Of a stretch of DNA of 64,000 nt, positions 1,251 through 53,271 are shown one piece after another. The stretch lies in assembly GCA_943358385.1 (NCBI GenBank), contig CALRGX010000005.1:2886-66885 (forward strand), given 5' to 3'. The translations under genes and the position numbers were made by a program. The stretch comes from Parcubacteria group bacterium. GTDB taxonomy: Bacteria; Patescibacteriota; Minisyncoccia; Phycocordibacterales; UBA2100. Within the stretch, counting starts at the first letter, position 1, and every line of letters starts with the position of its first letter. Under the pieces are notes generated by a model. That model worked only from the letters and a program-made list of their open reading frames with translations. It was not told the DNA's origin and made no database searches.

Positions 1251-2282
1251 ATGTCATCAATGCGCCGGCTAGGTGCGCTTTTTGTGGGGGCCTGTGCCGC
1301 CATATGTACTTTTCCAGCAGTCGCGATGGCGCACACGCGCTGGTTTGCCGAAGGGACGCTTCAGCCCTACACCACCATGGAGCCTACTAGTTTATATTTG
1401 CTCGCCTGGGCCGTCATCACTACAGTTATTGTGAGTGTCGGCATCTATTTGGAGAGAAATACTATTCTGCGATTAGAATGGATTAAGCCGCGACTTGCGC
1501 ATTCCTTTGATAGAGCGGCGGGCACTTTTTCAATGGTGGCGGGCGCGTTTTTTGTAGTGGCAGGCACACATGAGTATCTCTTTTCGTCCAACATGGAAAA
1601 TGCTCTTGGTGTGCCCTCGTACTTCATTATTGCGCAGGTGTTTATTGGCCTCGCATTTTTGGTCGGAGCGTATGCACGTGTTGCGGCGCTCGCCTTGATT
1701 GCATTGTGGGCGCTCTCGATTGCATGGTTTGGTTGGTTGCCCATGGTTGAAAATCTGTGGGTGGTTGGGACTGGTCTTTTCATCCTGATAATGGGTAACG
1801 ATTATTTCAGCGTCCTAAATGTGCGGCTGCTCAAGAAATACACGCAGCACTATCATGCGTATGCATTGCCGCTTTTGCGCGTGTGTACTGGCGCCACATT
1901 GTTGGTGCTCGGCTTTTCGGAAAAGATTCTTCATCCCGAGTTCGGCATCAACTTTCTTGCTCAATACCACTGGAATTTTATGCAGCTGCTCGGATTTGCC
2001 GGGTACAGTGACTACCTCTTCACGCTCTCGGCCGGCTCGGTGGAAGCATTGCTCGGTATTGTATTTATTCTTGGCATCATGACCCGACTGAATGCATTGG
2101 TGGTCGCTACTTTTTTCACGATACCGCTTTTCATCCTGGGACCTATCGAGCTTGCTGGGCACCTGCCACATTTCGCGGCGGTGGTCATGCTTCTCTTGTT
2201 TGGAAGTGGTGACAAATTCGTTTTGATTCCACGGGTGCACCGCATTGCGGCCCACACGCGCCCAGGGGCGCATAGACGGTAA
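1251..2282 (+). CDS. Polytopic membrane protein with signal peptide, function unknown
   Basis: The ORF frame is 1182..2282. The start is chosen at MSSMRRLGALFVGACAAICTFPAVAMA|HTRW (signal-like) and is followed by multiple hydrophobic helices. Confidence 0.55.
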   Translation: MSSMRRLGALFVGACAAICTFPAVAMAHTRWFAEGTLQPYTTMEPTSLYLLAWAVITTVIVSVGIYLERNTILRLEWIKPRLAHSFDRAAGTFSMVAGAFFVVAGTHEYLFSSNMENALGVPSYFIIAQVFIGLAFLVGAYARVAALALIALWALSIAWFGWLPMVENLWVVGTGLFILIMGNDYFSVLNVRLLKKYTQHYHAYALPLLRVCTGATLLVLGFSEKILHPEFGINFLAQYHWNFMQLLGFAGYSDYLFTLSAGSVEALLGIVFILGIMTRLNALVVATFFTIPLFILGPIELAGHLPHFAAVVMLLLFGSGDKFVLIPRVHRIAAHTRPGAHRR

Positions 2283-2489
2283 TGATGGGTCTCGGGTACC
2301 TGGCTCGTCAGAGCTCTACACAGGTGGACGAGGTGAAGGGGGTGCGTACAATAGCCACAACACTCGTTTTATAGGCGTGTGATTAATAGCGTTACAACGC
2401 ATACATATGAAAGCAATACTAGGAATCGTGATTTTGATCGTGCTCGCAGCGGGCGGCTGGTACCTCTACGACAAAAAGAGTGCAGAAAA

Positions 2490-2957
2490 ATGGCACAAGA
2501 CGATGCGGCCATGAAAGCCGAAATGATGGCAAATGATCCAGATGGGGACGGTGACGACCACATGATGGGCACATCGACCGACGACATGATGATGGGTACA
2601 TCCAGCATGGCAACCTCGAGCTCTGCAACATCAACAGGCATGATGGATGACAAAAAGACGGAAGAAGTGGCTTCAGCGCCAGGAGCACCAGTCTTCACCA
2701 TGACCGGCAAAAATTTCGAGTTTTCCACGAAGGAGATGAAAGTAAAAAAAGGAGATAAAGTAACGGTGATTTTCGAGAGTTCGAGTGGATTCCATGATTG
2801 GGTGGTTGATGAATTTAAAGCAGCAACCAAACAGGTGAACCCTGGAACCAAGACATCGGTAACGTTTGTCGCAGATAAAACCGGCACGTTTGAGTACTAC
2901 TGCTCGGTAGGCAAGCATCGCCAGAGCGGTATGGTAGGGAAGTTGATTGTTGAGTAA
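2490..2957 (+). CDS. Cupredoxin (type-1 copper) domain protein with Met-rich linker; probably frameshifted from an upstream TM anchor ORF (2407..2511)
   Basis: The C-terminal domain has FHDW...YYCSVGKHRQSGM, matching the His/Cys/His/Met T1Cu ligand pattern. A Met/Asp/Gly-rich segment (DHMMGTSTDDMMMGTSSM) precedes it. A 34-aa TM ORF (MKAILGIVILIVLAAGGWYLYDKK...) lies in the +1 frame and overlaps at an A5 run at 2486-2490. Confidence 0.6.
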   Translation: MAQDDAAMKAEMMANDPDGDGDDHMMGTSTDDMMMGTSSMATSSSATSTGMMDDKKTEEVASAPGAPVFTMTGKNFEFSTKEMKVKKGDKVTVIFESSSGFHDWVVDEFKAATKQVNPGTKTSVTFVADKTGTFEYYCSVGKHRQSGMVGKLIVE

Positions 2958-3048
2958 AGGAGAAAACCGTTTCGGGAAAAGACAGCCGCGCCCTATGGGC
3001 GCGGCTGTCGTGTTTGTAGCAAGGCCTGGGTAGCGGTACAGTCTGGGT

Positions 3049-4194
3049 ATGCAAGGCGTCATTCATACGCGGAAAGTCGTTAGTAGTGTATTTTTCGTCG
3101 CCATCGCCATTGGCGGGTTTTTGGTCCCCGCATCGAGTGGTGCCCAAGAACTCTTGCCTGAAGTGGAGCACATATGGAAAGCTCAGGCCGTGAGTGTCTC
3201 GAGTGCGACGACAACATTCGAGGCATTTGGTGTGGAGTCGCAGTCCCAAATCCTCGAAGCTCGTATTCTGGAAGGCGAACGCTCGGGGGAAGTGGTACAG
3301 TTTCGCAACGACTACATCCTCCTTAAATCTGGAGACCGATTCTATCTGCGCCATAGCGTGCAGCCAGGAGGAGAAGATAGTTTTGCGGTGTTCGACCGAG
3401 ATCGACATCTGGTCTTGGGGGTGCTGGCTCTTTTATTTGTTGCGGCGGTTATATTCCTCGGAGGAATACAGGGTGTGCGTGCGCTGCTATCACTCATCGC
3501 CAGTTTCCTCTTGATTATGTACGTACTGGTGCCGTCACTCCTTGCGGCATATCCGCCCGTTTTGGTAAGTGTGGTGATTGCAGCGGGCATTTTGGCGCTC
3601 GCCATATTTCTGACACATGGCATCAATCGGGGGTCAGTCGTGGCGTTTGTAGGCACAGTCACTGCGGTGTTGTGTACTGGTGCACTGGCGACACTCGTCT
3701 CGTACTTTGCGGGATTTACGGGATTGGGCCCGGACGAGGCAACCTACCTTAATTTGGCAACGGGTGGAACGCTGGATTTAGCGGGTCTCCTTCTGGCGGG
3801 GATTATCATCGGTATGCTTGGTGTGTTGGACGATATTGCCATCACCCAGGTAGCGGTGGTGCGTGAGCTCTACCATGCGACACCGGATATGAGCAGGCAC
3901 GAAGTTTATACGCGTGCTATGCGTGTCGGGAAAGAACATGCCGGGGCATTGGTGAATACCTTGGTATTGGCGTACAGCGGTGCGGCGCTCCCGCTCATTA
4001 TGCTCTTCGCGCTCTCTGAAGAGAGTATGCTTTTTTTCATCAATAGAGAGATTTTTGCCGTGGAAATAGTACGAGCCCTGGTCGGCTCTATCGGCCTCAT
4101 GGTAGCGGTCCCCGTCACGACCGCGCTTGCCGCGTGGTTTTTGCGAGGACACGCGCATGGCGTCGGGCCCGTGCACGGCCATCACCACGGATAG
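3049..4194 (+). CDS. YibE/F-family-like integral membrane protein with His-rich C-terminus
   Basis: An N-terminal signal/TM is followed by a soluble domain and then about 6 hydrophobic helices. The architecture and the motifs LLKSGDRFYL and GVLDDIAITQ are reminiscent of the YibE/F family. The tail is HGHAHGVGPVHGHHHG. Confidence 0.45.
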   Translation: MQGVIHTRKVVSSVFFVAIAIGGFLVPASSGAQELLPEVEHIWKAQAVSVSSATTTFEAFGVESQSQILEARILEGERSGEVVQFRNDYILLKSGDRFYLRHSVQPGGEDSFAVFDRDRHLVLGVLALLFVAAVIFLGGIQGVRALLSLIASFLLIMYVLVPSLLAAYPPVLVSVVIAAGILALAIFLTHGINRGSVVAFVGTVTAVLCTGALATLVSYFAGFTGLGPDEATYLNLATGGTLDLAGLLLAGIIIGMLGVLDDIAITQVAVVRELYHATPDMSRHEVYTRAMRVGKEHAGALVNTLVLAYSGAALPLIMLFALSEESMLFFINREIFAVEIVRALVGSIGLMVAVPVTTALAAWFLRGHAHGVGPVHGHHHG

Positions 4195-32960: not shown

Positions 32961-33009
32961 GGTCGTGCCTACTATACCACTCTCCCTGGGTAGGTGTTTA
33001 CGCTGAATA

Positions 33010-33038
33010 TTGACGTGGAACGTACTTGAAAGTATAGT
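33010..33038 (+). promoter_or_regulatory. Strong sigma70-like promoter driving ssrA
   Basis: TTGACG (33010-15), a 17-bp spacer, then TATAGT (33033-38). Confidence 0.6.
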
Positions 33039-33044
33039 CCAAAA

Positions 33045-33107
33045 CGGTGTTAGGTGCGGTGTAACTAAGTGGATCGGACCCGGGGGCGGTACCCGGCGCC
33101 TCCACCA
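33045..33107 (+). ncRNA. ssrA: tmRNA acceptor (3') piece of a circularly permuted ssrA
   Basis: A T-arm-like hairpin CCGGG-ggcggta-CCCGG is followed by CGCCTCC-ACCA. This is the 3' acceptor strand, discriminator and CCA, and it lies upstream of the 5' GGGGGCG strand. Confidence 0.55.
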
Positions 33108-33149
33108 AAAACACATCGCTCTGTTCTTTACAGAAGGTGTGCTTTTGCT

Positions 33150-33340
33150 GGGGGCGAAATAGGATCGACGACCACCCAAAAGCTCCGCTGCTTCAACGCA
33201 AGCCGAAGCACCAACTCAAGTGCCAACCATCAGGACGGCGCTGTTCACGCCTAAGGGCTGAACGGGGTTCGGGGAGTACCTGGCAACAGAAACTCCCCAC
33301 TCATACCATGGGCCCGCTCAAAGAGAGCGGGCCCAACTCA
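33150..33340 (+). ncRNA. ssrA: tmRNA coding (5') piece of permuted ssrA
   Basis: It begins GGGGGCGAAATAGGATCGACG, which resembles the tmRNA 5' end GGGGcugauucuGGAUUCGACG. Its GGGGGCG is complementary to the upstream CGCCTCC. It contains a short reading frame ending TAA (a candidate tag ...ANHQDGAVHA) and a terminal hairpin GGGCCCGCTC-aaagag-AGCGGGCCC. Confidence 0.55.
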
Positions 33341-33420
33341 TATCTGAGTGAATTTGACACTAGTATTTTACGGTGGTACTATATAAAAGGTACAGTAGGA
33401 AACCAAAGGAGAACAGACGA

Positions 33421-35211: not shown

Positions 35212-35301
35212 GGAGGGTTCGCATAGTGGTCTAGTGCACGTCCCTGGAAAGGACGAGTCTGGGAAACCGGACCGAGAGTTCGAATCTCTCACCCTCCGCC
35301 A
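35212..35301 (+). tRNA. tRNA-Ser (anticodon GGA), CCA encoded
   Basis: The acceptor GGAGGGT/ACCCTCC is followed by GCCA. The anticodon loop is CTGGAAA, and the long variable arm is GTCTGGGAAACCGGAC. Confidence 0.85.
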
Positions 35302-35322
35302 ACACAATTTAGTCTCGGAGTC

Positions 35323-35357
35323 AACTCACTTGCCTGAGCAAGTGGTGCGACTCACAT
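35323..35357. repeat. Left copy of imperfect direct repeats flanking the AT-rich islet (AACTCACTTGCCT ... GCGACTCACAT), containing palindrome CACTTGC-ctga-GCAAGTG
   Basis: ACTCACTTGCCT and GCGACTCAC recur at 37653-37667 as GCGACTCACTTGCCT. ACTCACAT recurs at 37729-37736. Confidence 0.5.
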
Positions 35358-35371
35358 ACATAAATTGCAAC

Positions 35372-35402
35372 AAAAAAACACGATAATCTCGTGTATTTTT
35401 TG
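35372..35402. terminator. Bidirectional terminator (tRNA-Ser on + and the island operon on -)
   Basis: AAAAAAACACGA-taatc-TCGTGTATTTTTTT. Confidence 0.65.
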
Positions 35403-35417
35403 TTGCAAGAGTAACTC

Positions 35418-35837
35418 TCAATAAGACTTTAGCCACTCATTCATCATTTTAATTTCAACCTCTTGAGCTTTTATTATATTCTCTGCAAAAGTCCTAATTT
35501 CAGGATTTACAGTTTTGTCTTGTAGTAACAATTTGGCCATGTCTACAGCACCTTGATGATGAGGTATCATGCCAGCAATAAATTCTTTTTCTAGAGCTTT
35601 ACCTGTTTTACCTTTCATCATCCCGACCATGTCTGTCATGGTCATATCCATCATACTGTTACCAGTATTCATCATCATTGAACCATCTGGCATTTGATGC
35701 ATATTCTGCATTGTTTTCTGTGCACCAGTTAGATTGTTTATTCGCTCTTTATCTTTCTGTACGATATCTCCGAAGTGAAATACCCATGTAGAGATGAGTG
35801 CTATTGCTAATACGATTGTAGAAATTTTGTAATTCAT
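35418..35837 (-). CDS. DUF305-family protein with Met-rich segment (copper-associated four-helix-bundle family)
   Basis: Signal peptide, the Met-rich run MQNMHQMPDGSMMMNTGNSMMDMTMTDMVGMM, and the DUF305 motif GMIPHHQGAVDMA. Confidence 0.65.
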   Translation of the reverse strand: MNYKISTIVLAIALISTWVFHFGDIVQKDKERINNLTGAQKTMQNMHQMPDGSMMMNTGNSMMDMTMTDMVGMMKGKTGKALEKEFIAGMIPHHQGAVDMAKLLLQDKTVNPEIRTFAENIIKAQEVEIKMMNEWLKSY

Positions 35838-35872
35838 AAATCTGTTTATTAATTAATAATACTTTGGGGACA

Positions 35873-36517
35873 TTACATTGCCATATGCCCCATACTTAAA
35901 GTTGTGATCACCATATAGAGAGCCATAAGTGCCATAAATAGATTCTCGAAAAGAGTTACCTTTGTCATTGGTACAGAGAAAACTGTTCCTAAGCATGCAC
36001 AAGGTATCTCATCTTTGTTTTGAAGTGCTTTCCAGACCCCTATAGTACCTATAGACATAATAATAAAGGTAAACACGTCTCTGTATATTCCACCAATGAC
36101 AAAGAAGTACAGTACTCCAAGCCCTATTTCAATAAATGGATACAGAAGTGCGTATGTGCGAGACTTCTTTGCCAAGATATCATACGTCATGTAAGCGTCT
36201 GCAAAAGCACTCAAATTGGGTAGTTTAAATAATCCAAAAACAAGAAAGAAATAGGACATCATGTACATCATTCCTGTCATAAAGCTATAATCTTGTTTGA
36301 GATACATAGAGACAATAGTCAAAATTGTAATGACTCCGATCATAGCTATTAATGGTAATAGTTTTTGGAAAGTTGATTGATGTGGAAGATTCAAGACTTT
36401 TATTGATTGTTCGGTTTTGTGGTGTTCACAAAAGTAATGAGGACTACCATTTGTGTTCTCATAATAGGTGCCAGCCATACTACACTTCTCACATTTGTTG
36501 TATTTTATTGCATGCAT
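35873..36517 (-). CDS. MauE/DoxX-family redox-associated membrane protein with N-terminal zinc-ribbon-like domain
   Basis: The N-terminus CEKC...FCEHH is followed by a 4-TM domain with LYPFIEIGLGVLYFFV and IPCACLGTVFSVPMTKVTLFEN. It is a paralogue of the C-domain of 7788..8507. Confidence 0.6.
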   Translation of the reverse strand: MHAIKYNKCEKCSMAGTYYENTNGSPHYFCEHHKTEQSIKVLNLPHQSTFQKLLPLIAMIGVITILTIVSMYLKQDYSFMTGMMYMMSYFFLVFGLFKLPNLSAFADAYMTYDILAKKSRTYALLYPFIEIGLGVLYFFVIGGIYRDVFTFIIMSIGTIGVWKALQNKDEIPCACLGTVFSVPMTKVTLFENLFMALMALYMVITTLSMGHMAM

Positions 36518-36522
36518 ACAAT

Positions 36523-36888
36523 TTAATGTTGAACGCTTTCACTTCCATGATGATCTTCACCAAGTAGTGTGTTATCCATAACATAATGAGAAAACAACAT
36601 AAAAAGTATTGCTAAAATTACCACAACTGCAAGATTTCTCTTTTCTATTTTGAATCTGTCTTTCAAGAAAAATGTTACATAGGTGATAATCATTCCAAGG
36701 CCAAGAAGTATTCCAGCGTATGACGGATTATCAAGATAATGCTGTATACCACCTGACAAAAATCCAGTTGCAAACGAAAGTCCTGTGATTATAAGAAAAT
36801 AATTTAGGTTGATTTTTTGCCCATGTTCTTTTGCTTCTTTAATATTTCCTATAATAGTGAAGATTAGACCTATACCAATTAGAACCAC
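36523..36888 (-). CDS. Small integral membrane protein, His-rich C-terminus; start may lie upstream (non-ATG)
   Basis: It has 3-4 hydrophobic helices and a C-terminus EDHHGSESVQH. The in-frame hydrophobic sequence continues upstream to 36993 without an ATG. Confidence 0.45.
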   Translation of the reverse strand: MVLIGIGLIFTIIGNIKEAKEHGQKINLNYFLIITGLSFATGFLSGGIQHYLDNPSYAGILLGLGMIITYVTFFLKDRFKIEKRNLAVVVILAILFMLFSHYVMDNTLLGEDHHGSESVQH

Positions 36889-37008
36889 ATATCTAGTAAC
36901 TCCATTTTGGAGTGTTCCGATATGAACTACTGACCCTGCGATAAGGGCAACTCCTAAATATTTGCAATATAAGTAAAAAATGCATAATGTGATTTATTTA
37001 TATCCATA

Positions 37009-37281
37009 CTATTTCCTCTTTAGCTTATAGACTTTAATAATCTCCTCTTGCATTTCCTTGATTCGACTTTTATTTGTGTCTTTTGTAAGACAGTGGGCAA
37101 GGTGGCTCTGTAGCATCTCATCTTCAAGGGAAGAGATGGCACTTTTTATAGCACTTGTTTGAGTAATGATATCAATACAGTATTTATCTGCTTGAATCAT
37201 CTTTTCAACTCCCTCCAGTTGTCCCATTATGCGTTTAATGCGACTAACTATTTTTTTGTTATCTTTGTGTACTCCGTGCAT
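37009..37281 (-). CDS. csoR: CsoR/RcnR-family metal-sensing transcriptional repressor (copper-sensing CsoR-like)
   Basis: VSRIKRIMGQLEGVEKMIQADKYCIDIITQTSAIKSAISSLEDEMLQSHLAHC carries the DUF156 pattern with conserved Cys...His...Cys ligand positions. Confidence 0.75.
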   Translation of the reverse strand: MHGVHKDNKKIVSRIKRIMGQLEGVEKMIQADKYCIDIITQTSAIKSAISSLEDEMLQSHLAHCLTKDTNKSRIKEMQEEIIKVYKLKRK

Positions 37282-37283
37282 AT

Positions 37284-37367
37284 TTATTTACAGCAATTAG
37301 AACCACAATTTGAACAAGCACACTTCTCACATTTACATGTGATACAAGAGCATTTTGTATTTTTCAT
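37284..37367 (-). CDS. 27-aa Cys-rich peptide (MKNTKCSCITCKCEKCACSNCGSNCCK), candidate metallothionein/Cu-binding peptide; first gene of csoR operon
   Basis: I translated the minus strand by hand. It gives 9 Cys in 27 aa, in CxC and CC motifs. The stop TAA lies 2 nt before the csoR ATG. The ORF is below the size cutoff of the ORF track. Confidence 0.5.
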   Translation of the reverse strand: MKNTKCSCITCKCEKCACSNCGSNCCK

Positions 37368-37421
37368 AATAATAGAGATATTGTAGTGGGTTATGGTAAT
37401 GGACTAGAATATCTTGTATAT

Positions 37422-37450
37422 ATTATATACCCTATGGGGGTATATTGCAA
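37422..37450 (-). promoter_or_regulatory. Promoter of the Cys-peptide/csoR operon with CsoR-like operator in the spacer
   Basis: On the minus strand the promoter reads TTGCAA - 17 bp - TATAAT. The spacer contains the GC-rich pseudo-palindrome ATACCCTATGGGGGTAT (37427-37443), which resembles known CsoR operators (TACCC...GGGGGTA type). Confidence 0.55.
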
Positions 37451-37652
37451 CTAGTCTATAAGCGTTAATTCTTTATCTTTATACACGATCTTGCTCCGCA
37501 GATTTGCTAATAGCTCTCGCTTCTCTGTGACCGCACCCTCTTTCAGAATGTATTTTGCATAATTTCGTATATCAGTATCAGGTGCTTATTTCTCTAGGTG
37601 TCTCATTTGTCTCATTTTCATCTAAAACCCTTTGTTTTATTACTGGGAGATA

Positions 37653-37667
37653 GCGACTCACTTGCCT
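37653..37667. repeat. Right copy of direct repeat (GCGACTCACTTGCCT) bounding the AT-rich islet
   Basis: It matches the left-flank segments at 35323-35335 and 35347-35355. Confidence 0.45.
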
Positions 37668-37827
37668 CAATGAGACACTCTAAAAAGTGCTATAATACAC
37701 TTACAAGGCCTCAAGTCGTGGGTACTTAACTCACATGGCCCGCAAAAATAAAGAGACAGAAGCGAAAGCTTCTGGCGATTATATTTTTGTAGGAAGGGTG
37801 AAAGATTCGAAGGCCGGAGGCGGGGGT

Positions 37828-37960
37828 CCCCAAAAGCTTTTGGGGCGCCGAGGCAGGGTCGTGGAATTTTCAAGTGCGACGGCACTTGAAAATATCCCTG
37901 ACCGAATCCCGGTCAAAAGTCTGCATCTACTGATACAGCTTTCGACCCTGCCTCGCGCCG
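37828..37960 (+). other. Highly structured ~130-nt element (candidate ncRNA or MITE-like repeat)
   Basis: A perfect 18-bp palindrome CCCCAAAAGCTTTTGGGG lies at 37828-37845. A 13-bp long-range stem pairs CGAGGCAGGGTCG (37849-61) with CGACCCTGCCTCG (37943-55). Inside it are the hairpins TTTTCAAGTGC-gacg-GCACTTGAAAA and GACCG-aatcc-CGGTC. Confidence 0.4.
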
Positions 37961-38381
37961 ACGCGCTCCGGCCTTGCGAAGCTGCGCACGGCTCGCTTCT
38001 CACCCCTCCGCTTTGTTCAAGAGAAAGCTTCAAGATAAAGAGAGAAGTTCGCCGCCTTCGCATGTATACTTTCAGTATGTGGATTCACCAGCGCTCGCTG
38101 CTCATCGGTGCTGCCTTCGCACTTCCATTTTTCGCTGCAAATGTGCTGGTAGCTTTGCAGGCAAAACTATTCCTTTGGCTCCTGCGCCCCCTGGGGCATA
38201 CCACGCTGGATGAAGAAATCGCCCAGCCCCCAGCCGATAAGGGCAATAAAAGCACACAGAACACCCCACGAAAGTGACATGGGGGAAGTGTAGCATCGCT
38301 GCCACAGACAGCTCGGCAGTATGTACATTGCGTTCACGTGTGTGCTAATGTAATTCGGGTTTAGCTACAGGAGAGTGCTAC

Positions 38382-40360: not shown

Positions 40361-40771
40361 ATGAAGCGAGTCCTCATAACTGGCGGAGCGGGCTTTATAG
40401 GGCACCACGTCGTGGACTACCTCCTCGAGAGAACCGATTGGCAGCTGGTTTTGCTGGATCGCCTCGACACCTCGGGTGATTTGAATCGCCTCACCCATCT
40501 TCCCATCTGGCCGGCTCAGAAAGCACGCGTCACTTTCGTACATCACGATTTGAAAGCTCCATTCAACGAAGCGATATGTGCGCGCCTCGGGAGTATCGAC
40601 TACATCTTTCATTTGGCCGCATCGACGCACGTTGATCGAAGTATCAGTGACCCCATGCTTTTTGTGGGCGATAACGTCGTAGGAACGGGGCACTTGTTGG
40701 AATACGCACGCACACTACCCGCGCTTTCACTGTACTCTTTTGTGTCGCATCCGTGTATACATTTTATATAG
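40361..40771 (+). pseudogene. Truncated NAD-dependent epimerase/dehydratase (RfbB/GalE-like) N-terminal fragment
   Basis: MKRVLITGGAGFIGHHVVDYLL is the Rossmann GxxGxxG motif, and DYIFHLAASTHVDRS is present. The ORF stops after 136 aa, whereas full-length enzymes are about 310-350 aa. Confidence 0.55.
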
Positions 40772-44140: not shown

Positions 44141-44487
44141 GGGCTGCATCGGGTAGCTGCTATCAATGGCAACATCGATAGAGGAAAGTCCGGGCTCGGG
44201 CCGATAGAAATATCGCGCAGCAGGGTAATAGGTAACGCCTATCCATCGTAAGGTGAGAGGTGCGAGCAGAAACGCCCGCGGCGAAAGCCAGAGGCCCCGC
44301 AAGGGTGACGTCTGTGGAAACACAGATATGAAACGGCTAAATCCTTACCTCCGTGCAAGGTCGTGCCTGTCGCAAGACAGGAGTGCCGCTTGAGGGTGTT
44401 GGCGACAACACTCCCAGATGAATAGTTACACAGTCCTTCGCCTGAAAAGGCTCGGGATGGACAGAACCCGGCTTACAGGTGCAGCGC
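44141..44487 (+). ncRNA. rnpB: RNase P RNA, bacterial type A
   Basis: GGAAAGTCCGGGCTC is the P4 5' strand, GGTAACGCC is present, ACAGAACCCGGCTTA is the P4 3' strand, the P3 hairpin is TATCAATG-gcaa-CATCGATA, and P1 pairs GCTGCATC with GGTGCAGC. Confidence 0.85.
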
Positions 44488-44795
44488 AGTGAGTGAAAAG
44501 AGGCCCCGAATAGGGGTCTCTTTTCCGAATAAGCAATTCTGTATGCTCCGCATACAGATGCAGCGCAGCGAATAAAGAAGAGACCCGAACAGGGTCTTTT
44601 CTTTTGAGCAAGCAAAATCTGAAAGGTTTCCTTATAGGTGCAGCGAAATGAGCGAAGAAAAACCCCGAATAGGGGTTTTTCTTCCGAATGAGCAATCCTG
44701 TATGCTTTGCATATAGGTGCAGCGAACGAGTCAAAAGAGAACGCGAAAGCGTTCTCTTTTGCGAGAGAGCCAGAACTGTATCGACCCGTGCCCGC
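44477..44795 (+). repeat. Four tandem ~80-bp units, each = copy of rnpB P1-3' strand (GGTGCAGCG / GATGCAGCG) + hairpin with GAANA pentaloop + U-tract (+ second hairpin in units 1 and 3)
   Basis: Units start at 44477, 44556, 44636 and 44716. The stems are GGCCCC/GGGGTC, AGACCC/GGGTCT, AAACCCC/GGGGTTT and AGAACGC/GCGTTCT, so they covary. Units 1 and 3 also carry TGTATGC-nnn-GCATACA. Confidence 0.6.
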
Positions 44796-52707: not shown

Positions 52708-52778
52708 GCGGAATTAGTTCAGTGGTAGAACGAATGCTTCCCAAGCATTAGACGCGGGTTCGATTCCCGCATTCCGCA
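52708..52778 (+). tRNA. tRNA-Gly (anticodon CCC)
   Basis: The acceptor is GCGGAAT/ATTCCGC with discriminator A. The anticodon stem AATGC/GCATT carries the loop TTCCCAA. The T-arm is GCGGG-TTCGATT-CCCGC. Confidence 0.85.
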
Positions 52779-53204
52779 CAAAAAAGATGAGCTGGAAGCG
52801 TGAGCTTCCGGCGATTACTTTTTGTAGCGAAATGCGGGAATCGAAAGGCGGAGCCTGAATGAATGCCGAACTGAGTGAGGCAGAGAACAGGCGAGCCCGG
52901 GGAGGAAGCACTTAGATTTTTCTGCGTGAGCTAGAAAAAACTTAGTGACTTGACCCCGATTCCCGCATTCCGCACAAAACTCGCTGAGCGAGTGTGTGTG
53001 GAATGAGAAACATGCCTGCGCATGTTTCGTCGGGAATCGAAGCCCGGAGCGTTGTGTTTGTTTGTGTAGCAAGGCAAACACCCTGCCCGACCGGCAGGCG
53101 GGCGCGAGGGCCGGCTCGAAGAAAATTGCGTCAGCAATTTTACTGAGAGGATCCCGCATTCCGCGTTATCGTAAATATCCCTGATTGATTCCCGCATTCC
53201 GCAC
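52758..53204. repeat. Patchwork of direct and inverted copies of the tRNA-Gly 3' end
   Basis: Direct copies of GATTCCCGCATTCCGCAC(AAAA) lie at 52763-80 (in the tRNA), 52958-79 (22 bp), 53152-64 (13 bp) and 53187-204 (18 bp). Inverted partial copies ATGCGGGAATCGAA lie at 52832-45 and CGGGAATCGAA at 53031-41. The arrangement looks like two ~195-bp units, each a direct core, a hairpin and an inverted core. Confidence 0.6.
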
Positions 53205-53271
53205 TCCACTATCCACTTGCGTCCCTGTGGAGTGCCAATGCTATACTGACCCTCTAAAAGCTAGCGTGCAC

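What the first reader, a model, noticed from the sequence alone, without database searches (positions are those of the whole stretch)
37828..37960. Dense nested secondary structure (~130 nt) just outside the islet: candidate ncRNA or MITE-like element
There is a perfect 18-bp palindrome, CCCCAAAAGCTTTTGGGG. It is followed by a 13-bp long-range helix, 37849-61 pairing with 37943-55. That helix encloses an 11-bp hairpin, TTTTCAAGTGC-gacg-GCACTTGAAAA, and a 5-bp hairpin, GACCG-aatcc-CGGTC. A TATAAT lies at 37690. The ORF-track ORF covering it, 37735..38277, has low-complexity composition and no SD, so it is probably not coding. I could not match it to SRP RNA or 6S consensus by eye. Just upstream, at 37599-37680, are tandem TGTCTCATT x2 and the inverted pair GTGTCTCATT / AATGAGACAC.
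Basis: seen in the sequence. Interest (0 to 1): 0.5.

Follow-up and report, generated by a model that had tools for sequence, protein, structure and literature searches.

The report
Inverted pair of tRNA-targeting mini-elements
The "nested RNA structure" is two back-to-back, oppositely oriented copies of a small non-coding element that is widespread in Patescibacteria, is not catalogued in Rfam, sits right behind tRNA genes and can be present or absent inside a tRNA gene's T-loop; how it moves and what its conserved fold does are not known.

Summary
It is not one RNA with nested helices. It is two convergent copies of one element family, + copy 37792-37910 and - copy 38009-37911. The long-range "helices" are the family's conserved blocks facing each other.

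The family has no Rfam 15 match. It has a covariation-supported three-way junction: P1, P2 with hairpin A, P3 with hairpin B.

Copies lie directly 3' of tRNA genes on the same strand (89 of 131). In 34 of 81 the DNA after the core repeats the upstream tRNA from T-loop position 57 into the gene's trailer. The 5' arm pairs with that repeat, imitating the acceptor/T-stem helix.

The window holds four copies. One, after tRNA-Gly, is a clean 196-bp indel flanked by 23-bp direct repeats when compared with a ~97%-identical relative.

Best reading: miniature, recombinase-less integrative elements that target tRNA T-loops. The recombinase, and whether the fold acts as RNA or ssDNA, are unresolved. ORF 37735-38277 is a spurious chimera.

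The parts
37792..37910 (+). + copy of the family, the best copy in the window. 5' arm GGAAGGGT-GAAAG-ATTC at 37792-37808 resembles tRNA-Ser acceptor 5' strand plus T-stem 5' strand plus the complement of T-loop 57-60. J1/2 GAAG at 37809-12. P2 is GCC 37813-15 with GGC 37852-54. GGAG/CGA internal loop. Hairpin A at 37820-37848 contains the 18-bp palindrome. P3 plus hairpin B at 37857-37903 has a GACG loop at 37878-81 and a G.T wobble at 37861/37899. The 3' arm is cut down to GAATC(CC) at 37904-37910.
   Evidence: cmsearch with family model R1 gives 88 bits, E 6e-34. Alignment A2. 37795-37811 is the reverse complement, 16 of 17, of tRNA-Ser 35279-35295 (I3).
37911..38009 (-). - copy, subtype 2 and diverged. 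5' arm GGAGGGGTGA runs 38009->38000. The extra hairpin GAAGC-GAGCCGTGCGCA-GCTTC runs 37999->37978. GCAAG-GCC-GGAG runs 37977->37966. Short hairpin A' is at 37965->37956. CGAGGCAGGGTCG runs 37955->37943. A degenerate P3/hairpin B' with AGTA loop runs 37942->37916. The terminal TGACC is at 37915->37911.
   Evidence: cmsearch 21.7 bits, E 1e-6, on the minus strand at 37889-38002, with no + strand hit there. It aligns with subtype-2 members L068, L079, L143, L157 and others through GGGTGAG-hairpin-GCAAGGCCGGAGCGCG..CGCGAGGCAGGGTCG.
37899..37915 (.). Tail-to-tail junction TGACC-GAATCCC-GGTCA. The conserved end (..TGACC) of each copy faces inward across a 7-nt spacer. That spacer is the start of a tRNA 3' half (T-loop 57-60 plus the first T-stem bases).
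   Evidence: Sequence. In other members the tRNA-derived repeat starts immediately after ..GACC. Reading it as a product of recombination between inverted sites is inference.
37757..37791 (+). Upstream hairpin CAGAAGC-GAAA-GCTTCTG followed by GGCGATTATATTTTTGTAG. This motif precedes the 5' arm in several members. It looks like the terminator and trailer that the element supplies to the tRNA; on the minus strand it scores as an intrinsic terminator.
   Evidence: terminator-like site 37774-37757 on the minus strand. The same motif occurs before copy 3 (52794-52826), in L040 and in L128.
35212..35301 (+). tRNA-Ser(GGA), the tRNA gene whose 3' half the arms of both copies imitate. It is now separated from the + copy by the low-GC islet.
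   Evidence: ARAGORN and Rfam.
52784..52979 (+). Copy 3, a complete 196-bp unit inserted in the T-loop of tRNA-Gly(CCC) (gene 52708-52779). It consists of trailer plus hairpin, the 5' arm GCGAAATGCGGGAATC at 52827-52842, a diverged core, and the repeat CGATTCCCGCATTCCGCACAAAA at 52957-52979. The left repeat copy is at 52761-52783, inside and just after the tRNA. It is absent from a ~97%-identical relative.
   Evidence: cmsearch 26.5 bits, E 1e-8. Sequence. Empty-site alignment of L169 and L172 against L170.
52980..53204 (+). Copy 4, the older unit in tandem. Its core is diverged (CM hit 53014-53208). It ends in GATTCCCGCATTCCGCAC at 53187-53204, a copy of the tRNA-Gly 3' half. It is present in the relative as well.
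   Evidence: cmsearch 16.2 bits, E 2e-4. Sequence. Alignment A3.
38063..38205 (+). Right boundary of the locus: an N-terminal fragment of a 112-aa membrane-protein gene, intact in the relative (L011). It is fused near 38196 to the truncated N-terminus of an EamA gene on the minus strand. Together these make the false ORF 37735-38277.

Best explanation
Shown: 37792-38009 is a tail-to-tail inverted pair of two members of one family of small structured non-coding elements. Every long-range helix in the finding is a conserved block of the + copy facing the same block of the - copy. Only the local hairpins and the short P2/P3 helices are native structure. Shown for the family: the core is about 100-140 nt and folds into a three-way junction. 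P1 varies in sequence. J1/2 is GAAAG. P2 is GNC/GN'C with a GGAG/CGAG internal loop leading to hairpin A. P3 is GGGUCGCGGAA...UAUCYGUGACC leading to hairpin B. Copies sit immediately 3' of tRNA genes of any type, on the same strand. In the larger class, the DNA right after ..GACC repeats the upstream tRNA from T-loop position 57 through the acceptor 3' strand and into the gene's trailer. The element's 5' arm is complementary to that repeat, so P1 imitates the acceptor/T-stem 'minihelix' of that tRNA. One copy in this window is a precise 196-bp presence/absence polymorphism inside tRNA-Gly. Inferred: these are miniature integrative elements that enter a tRNA gene between C56 and R57, supply a replacement 3' half plus trailer and terminator, and displace the old 3' half. 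They accumulate in tandem and carry no recombinase, so a trans-acting enzyme would move them. Also inferred: the conserved junction, which abuts the crossover point and forms on the tRNA-sense strand, is the module that enzyme recognises, as folded ssDNA or as an RNA cofactor. The inverted pair in the finding is most simply the product of recombination between two oppositely oriented sites of this kind, in a region that also carries an islet insertion and two gene-fusion scars.
For: Inverted pair: model R1 hits 37784-37925 on + (88 bits) and 37889-38002 on - (21.7 bits, E 1e-6). The - copy aligns with subtype-2 members. The blocks GGAxGGGTGA, AAGGCCGGAG, CGAGGCAGGGTCG and TGACC occur in both copies in mirror order. 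Family: the 18-mer scan of species genomes gave 3 true homologues, all Patescibacteria (Saccharibacteria, Paceibacterota, Minisyncoccia), among 35 hits. Structure: in 62 distinct sequences 92% of cells pair, against 35-48% when the 3' partners are slid. The covariation score is 0.554 against about 0.1, and the middle P2 pair is CG21/GC19/AU14/UA3. Strand: in free helix columns G.U 35 versus A.C 8, p = 4e-5. tRNA linkage: 74 of 131 copies have a tRNA directly upstream on the same strand, 15 downstream on the same strand, and 4 on the opposite strand. Of 149 tRNA genes with enough flank in these loci, 75 are followed by a copy (the sample is biased). Repeat of the tRNA 3' half: 34 of 81 score at least 12, against 0.6% of shuffled pairings. 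Repeats reach 32 nt, include trailer sequence, and always start at position 57. Polymorphism: the 196-bp indel with 23-bp direct repeats in tRNA-Gly. No protein partner nearby: all-vs-all comparison of 374 neighbouring ORFs finds only housekeeping families. Not coding. Not in Rfam. Not on viral contigs.
Against: No recombinase has been identified, so the mechanism is inference. There is only one empty-site comparison, and that indel could be a deletion between the 23-bp repeats rather than an insertion. Class B members (for example L038, L144, L134) repeat only about 7-14 nt of discriminator plus trailer, or nothing detectable. The 5' arm has no role in a textbook integrase attP. An element carrying a fixed tRNA 3' half could not hop between different tRNA species without damaging them, yet the family is found behind at least 19 tRNA types. 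The reciprocal product of the proposed inversion is not in the window. Part of P3's invariance comes from the search pattern. Expression as RNA is untested. The model gives roughly 20-bit antisense 'ghost' hits on some true copies, so the - copy rests mainly on alignment A4.
Confidence: 0.68

Rival explanations
1. The family is primarily a cellular ncRNA gene: a 'top-half tRNA' mimic. In it the acceptor/T-stem minihelix (P1) carries a conserved three-way junction in place of the T-loop. It would be co-transcribed with or just after its cognate tRNA and matured by RNase P and 3' processing, with some role in tRNA metabolism, as a decoy, or in regulation. The tRNA-derived repeats would be part of the RNA gene rather than att sites. 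Indels would arise by homologous or direct-repeat recombination.
For: Strong covariation, conserved junction nucleotides and tandem G.A motifs typical of folded RNAs. G.U excess on the tRNA-sense strand. P1 is kept complementary even though it is target-specific. 3' ends read like T-stem plus acceptor plus discriminator plus CCA or CAA. Occupancy behind about half of the tRNA genes in the loci. No recombinase nearby.
Against: The repeats extend into gene trailers rather than ending in a post-transcriptional CCA. There are tandem arrays, a clean 196-bp indel and versions that carry cargo genes. A terminator-like hairpin plus U-tract sits directly upstream, and no consistent promoter is visible. 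Copies within one genome differ greatly in score: 88, 26, 22 and 16 bits.
Confidence: 0.22
2. The 218-nt region is one structured RNA whose nested long-range helices are its functional fold.
For: Exceptional folding energy on both strands. The outermost helix has a G.U on the minus strand where the + strand has A.C.
Against: The long-range helices are perfect Watson-Crick copies of family-conserved blocks. None of the more than 100 other copies read shows them. Each half is independently recognised as a family member on opposite strands. The conserved native pairings (P2, P3, P1 with the 3' flank) compete with the long-range ones.
Confidence: 0.04
3. The copies are inert scars (CIME-like attL/attR remnants) left by ordinary integrase-bearing islands or prophages that use tRNA T-loops. 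The apparent structure would be a by-product of palindromic protein-binding sites in attP arms.
For: Some members lie at the far end of gene-carrying islands downstream of a tRNA (L058, L070, L093; window islet). L068 has a large serine recombinase next to an inverted pair of cores. Tandem accretion at tRNA genes is known for such islands (own knowledge; Islander abstract, PMC4383910, listed).
Against: Hairpin stems change sequence freely while keeping pairing, which protein half-sites do not do. There is strand-asymmetric G.U tolerance. There are no hits in 2.9 million viral contigs. No integrase recurs among neighbours. The core is conserved across phylum-level lineages.
Confidence: 0.08
4. 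A classical MITE moved by a DDE transposase, or a protein-coding gene (ORF 37735-38277).
For: Small, multicopy and non-coding, with complementary ends (P1).
Against: The 'TIRs' are target-specific tRNA sequence, not element-specific. The direct repeats are 14-32 bp, variable, and always begin at tRNA position 57. The ORF has no homologues and is a fusion artefact.
Confidence: 0.02

Closest known systems
Genomic islands and prophages integrated in tRNA/tmRNA genes (T-loop sublocation), their integrase-less derivatives (CIMEs), and tandem accretion
   Same: Insertion within the 3' part of a tRNA gene. The gene is regenerated. The displaced 3' fragment is left as a direct repeat at the far end. 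Tandem arrays form at one tRNA. Some versions carry cargo genes.
   Different: Units are only about 130-230 bp. No integrase is seen in or near the large majority. A conserved, covarying three-way-junction fold abuts the crossover. An internal arm is complementary to the tRNA-derived repeat. At least 19 tRNA types are occupied.
MITEs, REP/BIME and PATE-type miniature repeats
   Same: Short, non-coding, highly multicopy and intergenic, able to fold, and presumably mobilised in trans.
   Different: There are no element-specific terminal inverted repeats and no fixed-length target duplication. Placement is strictly site- and orientation-specific behind tRNA genes. The core sequence is conserved across phylum-level lineages.
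Folded single-stranded recombination sites: CTX-phage attP used by host XerCD (IMEX) and integron attC
   Same: No recombinase is encoded in the element. An intramolecular stem would rebuild a duplex copy of the target site (P1 = the tRNA gene segment 57-72). Structure rather than sequence is conserved in the stems. There is strand asymmetry and there are tandem arrays.
   Different: The target is a tRNA T-loop, not dif or attI. No enzyme is known for it. The single-stranded DNA form is purely hypothetical here.
RNA-guided recombination and transposition cofactors (IS110/IS1111 bridge or seek RNAs; TnpB/IscB omega RNAs)
   Same: A conserved structured scaffold encoded at the element end, next to the crossover, joined to a variable segment complementary to the target.
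   Different: No IS110-type or TnpB-type gene was found next to any copy. The 'guide' is a 10-16-nt arm paired in cis, not loop-borne short guides.
tRNA-like RNAs built on the acceptor/T-arm minihelix (tmRNA tRNA-like domain, bacterial YrlA Y RNAs, viral 3' tRNA-like structures)
   Same: 5' and 3' ends form an acceptor-plus-T-stem helix followed by a discriminator and often CCA. An extra domain is attached.
   Different: There is no T-loop and no D-loop analogue; the extra domain replaces the T-loop. ARAGORN and Rfam tRNA, tmRNA and Y-RNA models do not match. The family is multicopy, and P1 copies whichever tRNA is adjacent.

Membership tests
Any Rfam 15 family (SRP, 6S, tmRNA, Y RNA, riboswitches, ribozymes, and others) | Covariance-model score at or near the curated threshold | tested here: not met
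   No hit over 37792-38009 at gathering threshold or at E <= 10. No hit on the best family members in L102, L051, L086 and L128 at E <= 1.
tRNA / tmRNA gene | Cloverleaf or tRNA-like domain detectable by ARAGORN, with introns allowed | tested here: not met
   ARAGORN finds nothing at default settings. It finds only implausible models at 60-80% score thresholds.
tDNA-integrating genomic island / CIME | Insertion inside the 3' part of a tRNA gene, with the gene restored | tested here: met
   Copy 3 lies between C56 and R57 of tRNA-Gly, and ARAGORN still calls an intact gene.
tDNA-integrating genomic island / CIME | Direct repeat made of the tRNA 3' end at the distal boundary | tested here: met
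   34 of 81 copies, against 0.6% of shuffled pairings; up to 32 nt. A 23-bp repeat in the window.
tDNA-integrating genomic island / CIME | Presence/absence polymorphism with a precise empty site | tested here: met
   L170 against L169 and L172, a 196-bp indel. This is one case only, and the direction of the event is unknown.
tDNA-integrating genomic island / CIME | Cognate integrase in the element, or a related autonomous element carrying the same att region | tested here: not met
   No recombinase recurs among 374 neighbouring ORFs. There is one large serine recombinase, in L068. No viral contigs carry the core.
MITE | Element-specific terminal inverted repeats and a fixed-length target-site duplication | tested here: not met
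   The complementary arms are copies of the local tRNA sequence. Repeat length varies from 7 to 32 nt.
MITE | Short, non-coding, many copies per genome | tested here: met
   4 copies in 64 kb of the window. 127 copies of at least 36 bits in 0.6 Mb of loci, with up to 5 per 12 kb.
Structured ncRNA (generic) | Helices supported by compensatory changes beyond controls | tested here: met
   25 of 35 pairs change on both sides. Covariation score 0.554 against 0.09-0.12 when slid. 0 of 500 shuffles reach the observed score.
Structured ncRNA (generic) | Transcribed as a discrete RNA | not testable with these tools
   No expression data. Only the strand preference from G.U against A.C counts.
Folded-ssDNA recombination site (CTX attP / attC type) | Recombination of the folded single strand by a host recombinase | not testable with these tools
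   Only the geometry fits: P1 rebuilds the target duplex and the conserved P3 stacks on it at the crossover.
Protein-coding gene (ORF 37735-38277) | Conserved protein homologues | tested here: not met
   Only itself and a 26%-coverage match to gene X. The ORF spans two fusion breakpoints.

The most novel reading that the evidence does not exclude
The conserved three-way junction plus its variable 5' arm is the nucleic-acid half of a programmable integration system. A scaffold (RNA, or folded ssDNA) would be recognised by a recombinase encoded elsewhere in Patescibacteria genomes. An arm complementary to the tRNA 3' half would select the T-loop target. This would resemble a bridge RNA or a folded attP, but be aimed at tRNA genes and able to carry cargo such as defence or metal-resistance genes.
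Probability: 0.15. Interest if true: 0.9.

Novelty: new variant of a known kind. Interest (0 to 1): 0.74.

Why it matters
Patescibacteria have tiny genomes, and few of their mobile elements or non-coding RNAs have been described. Here a single conserved, structured, non-coding module sits behind roughly half of the tRNA genes in the sampled loci, across at least three phylum- or class-level lineages. It is absent from Rfam and from the literature I could search.

If it is a mobile element, it is an unusually small one that uses the most conserved sequence in any genome, the tRNA T-loop, as its landing site. It does so without harming the gene and without encoding its own enzyme. That points to an unknown host or trans-acting recombination activity, and to a route by which cargo islands (restriction-modification, defence, copper resistance) enter these genomes.

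If it is instead an RNA gene, it is a new class of tRNA top-half mimic.

In practical terms, these copies generate false ORFs, contig breaks and apparent 'super-structured' regions in metagenome-assembled genomes. A covariance model for them would improve annotation.

Tried and rejected
- **Rfam.** Searched at gathering and permissive thresholds on the window region and on the best family members. Nothing matched.
- **tRNA or tmRNA with an intron.** ARAGORN with introns and lowered thresholds gave only junk models.
- **Phage or plasmid origin.** blastn against the phage and plasmid collections gave no match. Five viral-contig pattern scans gave only two chance matches, L012 and L186.
- **Cis-regulatory leader or riboswitch.** Rejected because the orientation relative to flanking protein genes is near random, and those genes are unrelated housekeeping genes.
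- **Protein coding.** Rejected.
- **tRNA-Ser match as an inverted att repeat.** I first read the reverse-complement match to the tRNA-Ser 3' end this way. It is better explained as the family's normal 5' arm, which is complementary to the tRNA 3' half.
- **RNA-level capture of mature tRNA** (which would leave CCA). Rejected because the repeats continue into gene trailers.
- **Adjacent recombinase.** All-vs-all clustering of neighbouring ORFs plus a Pfam scan found one serine recombinase in one locus only.
- **Empty site at tRNA-Ser.** All retrieved contigs carry the same arrangement.
- **Literature.** Seven searches found nothing describing the family.
- **SRP, Y RNA, group I intron P4-P6, box C/D, H/ACA and retron msr/msd.** Resemblances recalled from memory were considered. 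None was supported by any test.
Full report
**1. The observation.**

- The paired region is larger than reported. AAGGCCGGAG 37810-19 pairs with 37966-75, and GGAAGGGTGA 37792-801 pairs with 38000-09, so about 218 nt (37792-38009) are involved.
- RNAfold gives -124.6 kcal/mol on + and -129.3 on -, with z = -8.3 and -9.6. None of 200 dinucleotide shuffles folds as well.
- Rfam finds nothing there, either at gathering thresholds or at E <= 10.
- The helices are almost all perfect Watson-Crick pairs and fold equally well on both strands. That already suggested inverted DNA repeats rather than an evolved RNA.

**2. Context.**

- tRNA-Ser(GGA) lies at 35212-35301.
- It is followed by a low-GC (33-36%) islet, about 35302-37700.
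  - The islet carries DUF305, MauE-like and CsoR-family genes on the minus strand.
  - It is bracketed by a 12-nt direct repeat, ACTCACTTGCCT, at 35324-35 and 37656-67.
- The GC-rich structured region comes next.
- From 38063 the DNA is the N-terminal 143 nt of a 112-aa membrane-protein gene that is intact in a ~97%-identical relative (L011).
- Near 38196 that fragment is fused to the truncated N-terminus of an EamA gene, which is intact in relatives L004 and L005.
- ORF 37735-38277 runs across these junctions. It has no homologues except itself and that gene fragment, so it is not a gene.
- The same arrangement occurs at 99.9-100% identity in contigs from several samples.

**3. Relatives.**

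- An 18-mer from the 13-bp helix region was scanned over one genome per species. It gave 35 hits. Of these, 32 are chance matches in GC-rich genomes.
- The other three extend to real similarity. All three are Patescibacteria: Saccharibacteria L038, Paceibacterota L040 and Minisyncoccia L041.
- They share GCCGGAGGC, a hairpin, GCCGAGGCAGGGTCGTGGAA, a second hairpin, and TATCCCTGACC. The hairpin sequences differ but stay paired.
With the window, L038 and L041 this gave 131 matching copies.

**4. Family structure.**

An alignment of 63 members (A2) with RNAalifold and my added P1 gives a three-way junction:
- P1, variable in sequence.
- J1/2, GAAAG.
- P2, GNC/GN'C, with a GGAG/CGAG internal loop leading to hairpin A. 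Hairpin A usually has an AGCA or AGUA loop.
- One purine, then P3, GGGUCGCGGAA...UAUCYGUGACC, with hairpin B. Hairpin B is either short or carries a CGAG/CGAG tandem G.A motif and a GACG loop.
- P1 3' strand.

Pair counts:
- 92% of cells are paired, against 35-48% when the 3' partners are slid by 1-3 columns.
- The covariation score is 0.554 against 0.09-0.12.
- 25 of 35 pairs change on both sides.
- The middle P2 pair is CG21/GC19/AU14/UA3.

Caveat: columns 97-106 and 134-144 were fixed by the search pattern, so their invariance is ascertainment.

Outside those columns and P1, G.U outnumbers A.C by 35 to 8 (p = 4e-5). The structure therefore forms on one strand, the window's + strand for the main copy. 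That strand could be RNA or single-stranded DNA.

The best members have no Rfam match either.

**5. What the finding is.**

A covariance model built from A2 finds four copies in the window:

| Coordinates | Strand | Bits |
|---|---|---|
| 37784-37925 | + | 88 |
| 37889-38002 | - | 21.7 (E 1e-6) |
| 52818-52979 | + | 26.5 |
| 53014-53208 | + | 16.2 |

- The minus-strand copy aligns with a family subtype that has an extra hairpin between the 5' arm and P2. The match runs through GGGTGAG-hairpin-GCAAGGCCGGAGCGCG-TCGG-CGCGAGGCAGGGTCG. Its P3 is degenerate.
- Each long-range helix in the finding is therefore a conserved block of the + copy opposite the same block of the - copy: GGAxGGGTGA, AAGGCCGGAG, CGAGGCAGGGTCG and TGACC.
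- Only the local hairpins are native structure.
- None of the other copies read shows the long-range pairs.

**6. Link to tRNA genes.**

- Of 131 copies, 74 have a tRNA gene directly upstream on the same strand, 15 have one downstream on the same strand, and 4 have one on the opposite strand. Most of the remainder lie at contig edges.
- At least 19 tRNA types are involved.
- Flanking protein genes are diverse housekeeping genes with no orientation preference. The element is therefore not a 5' leader.
- With the model, 127 copies of at least 36 bits were found in 0.6 Mb of loci. Of 149 tRNA genes with enough flank, 75 are followed by a copy within 250 nt. This sample is biased, because the loci were chosen for containing a copy.
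- In L078 three of four tRNA genes have a copy of at least 36 bits, and the fourth has a weak 20-bit match.
- L123 shows tRNA-element-tRNA-element arrays.
- In L140 an eight-tRNA cluster has one copy after its last gene.

**7. The tRNA-derived repeat and P1.**

- In 34 of 81 copies with an upstream tRNA, the DNA immediately after ..GACC repeats that tRNA. The repeat starts exactly at T-loop position 57 (GAATC, GATTC or AAATC). It continues through the T-stem 3' strand, the acceptor 3' strand and the discriminator, and on into the gene's own trailer. It reaches 32 nt. Only 0.6% of shuffled tRNA/element pairings score as high.
- Because trailer sequence is repeated rather than a post-transcriptional CCA, the duplication is a DNA-level event.
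- A second class, with short P1 such as TGTG/CACA, repeats only the discriminator plus 7-14 nt of trailer, or nothing detectable.
- The element's 5' arm is complementary to the repeat, forming P1 of 5-14 bp.
  - For copy 3 the arm is GCGAAAT-GCGGG-AATC. That is tRNA-Gly's acceptor 5' strand (one mismatch), its T-stem 5' strand, and the complement of T-loop 57-60.
  - P1 is thus an acceptor/T-stem 'minihelix' whose T-loop is replaced by the conserved junction.
- In the finding, the + copy's arm GGAAGGGT-GAAAG-ATTC imitates tRNA-Ser in the same way. This explains the 16-of-17 reverse-complement match to 35279-35295.
- The + copy's own 3' arm is cut after GAATC(CC), where the minus copy begins.

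**8. Mobility.**

- Copy 3 is a clean presence/absence polymorphism.
- In the relative GCA_021733565.1 (L170), tRNA-Gly runs ...GCGGGTT|CGATTCCCGCATTCCGCACAAAA|CTCGC... straight into copy 4.
- The window-type genomes (L169, L172) have 196 extra bp bounded by the 23-bp direct repeat CGATTCCCGCATTCCGCACAAAA, at window 52761-83 and 52957-79.
- The cores of copies 3 and 4 differ in sequence, so this is not a tandem duplication of copy 4.
- The layout fits successive integrations. Each unit brings a tRNA 3' half, a trailer, a terminator-like hairpin, a 5' arm and a core. Each pushes the previous 3' half downstream.
- Whether this particular indel was an insertion or a deletion between the repeats cannot be told.
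- Some members sit at the distal end of larger gene-carrying segments behind a tRNA:
  - restriction-modification methylases in L058;
  - DUF3800 in L070;
  - an AAA_21 ATPase in L093;
  - in L068, an inverted pair of cores around a restriction-modification module next to a large serine recombinase;
  - in the window, the copper islet lies between tRNA-Ser and the + copy, although it has its own 12-nt repeats.
- No recombinase recurs near the copies.
- The core is absent from 2.9 million viral contigs.

**9. Mechanism: what is shown and what is inferred.**

Shown:
- site- and orientation-specific placement behind tRNA genes;
- a repeat of the tRNA 3' half with a constant left edge at C56/R57;
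- an internal arm complementary to that repeat;
- a conserved strand-specific fold ending exactly at the repeat's edge;
- one precise indel, tandem arrays, and no adjacent enzyme.

Inferred:
- The units are non-autonomous integrative elements moved in trans.
- The conserved junction is the recognised module. P3 stacks on P1 at the crossover, so a folded single strand would present a duplex TATCCGTGACC|GATTCCC... resembling the target GGTTC|GATTCCC...
- The junction in the finding joins two ..TGACC ends across the 7-nt GAATCCC. This is what recombination between two inverted sites with a roughly 7-bp overlap would leave. That hints at a tyrosine-recombinase-like exchange, but the reciprocal product is not in the window.

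Main rival: the module is an RNA gene, a tRNA top-half mimic processed like a tRNA, and the repeats are part of that gene. Covariation, G.A motifs and the maintenance of P1 favour an RNA. Trailer repeats, the upstream terminator-like hairpin, cargo versions and the indel favour a DNA-level mobile element. The two readings are not mutually exclusive, since the fold could be an RNA cofactor for the element's own movement.

**10. Comparison and novelty.**

- The nearest known kinds are tRNA-integrating islands and their integrase-less remnants, miniature repeats (MITE, REP), folded single-strand recombination sites (CTX attP, attC), guide-RNA-dependent recombinases, and minihelix-based tRNA-like RNAs.
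- The family meets the positional criteria of tDNA-integrating elements. It fails the integrase criterion.
- It fails the MITE criteria for terminal repeats and fixed duplications.
- It fails all Rfam, tRNA and tmRNA models.
- I found no description of it in seven literature searches. That library lacks many subscription-journal papers, so prior description cannot be excluded.
- I rate it a new variant of a known kind: a miniature, recombinase-less, tRNA T-loop-targeting element with a conserved structured core.
- The specific 218-nt 'nested structure' is a one-off rearranged pair and probably has no function of its own.

Noticed in passing
window 35302-37700: Low-GC (33-36%) islet directly after tRNA-Ser. 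It carries DUF305, MauE-like, a 121-aa membrane protein and a CsoR-family repressor on the minus strand. It is bracketed by the 12-nt direct repeat ACTCACTTGCCT (35324-35 and 37656-67). A CsoR-operator-like palindrome ATATACCCTATGGGGGTATAT lies at about 37425-46, inside a promoter-like site (TTGCAA-17-TATAAT, minus strand 37450-37422). It appears to be a copper or metal-resistance insertion, separate from the tRNA-linked elements.
   Followed up: partly
window 37598-37678: GTGTCTCATT, TGTCTCATT and the inverted AATGAGACAC sit at the right end of the islet, next to the 12-nt repeat. They may be the islet's terminal repeats or a binding site. Not explained.
   Followed up: no
window 38063-38337: Two gene-fusion scars. 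The first 143 nt of a 112-aa membrane-protein gene (intact in L011) are joined to the truncated N-terminus of an EamA transporter gene (intact in L005) at a short microhomology, CATRCCACG, near 38196-38205.
   Followed up: yes
window 40361-40771, break near 40731: The NAD-dependent epimerase gene is cut to 136 aa, against 330-337 aa in relatives L004 and L005. Similarity to those relatives ends at 40731, and a class II ribonucleotide reductase gene follows. This is another rearrangement breakpoint in the same neighbourhood.
   Followed up: no
window 33006-33345 and 44141-44491: A circularly permuted (two-piece type) tmRNA gene, tag ANHQDGAVHA by ARAGORN, and a low-scoring bacterial class A RNase P RNA (120 bits against a gathering score of 100).
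   Followed up: no
L068 23-127 (+) and 3531-3645 (-): Two near-identical family copies in inverted orientation flank a 3.4-kb segment with an N6-methylase/specificity-like 681-aa gene and a 314-aa gene. Next to them is a 434-aa large serine recombinase (Resolvase, Recombinase and zinc-ribbon domains). This could be an invertible or mobile restriction-modification module using the element as its ends.
   Followed up: partly
L059 about 1650-4081: A frameshifted reverse transcriptase with a YCDD motif lies upstream of tRNA-Ser, preceded by a four-helix-bundle protein that looks Avd-like by eye (DGR-like; neither was scanned). Two identical family copies 842 bp apart bracket an IGPS-like 183-aa ORF (Pfam IGPS).
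   Followed up: no
L053, L078, L088, L102 (upstream of copies): A roughly 230-aa protein recurs upstream of four copies. It has an N-terminal HTH (Pfam) and, by eye, a LAGLIDADG-like motif. A GIY-YIG-like protein recurs near the arrays in L062 and L128. Both may be unrelated homing endonucleases.
   Followed up: no
L059, L104, L134, L086, L122: The covariance model gives about 17-22-bit hits on the antisense strand of genuine copies, because the hairpins are near-palindromic. Weak minus-strand hits therefore need independent support.
   Followed up: partly
L091 and L131: Subtype-2 copies lie 20-30 nt upstream of a tRNA-Ser(GGA). In L091 the copy is preceded by a 17-nt fragment identical to the 5' end of the window's tRNA-Ser(GGA) gene (GGAGGGTTCGCATAGTG). 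This arrangement does not fit the T-loop insertion pattern and remains unexplained.
   Followed up: no
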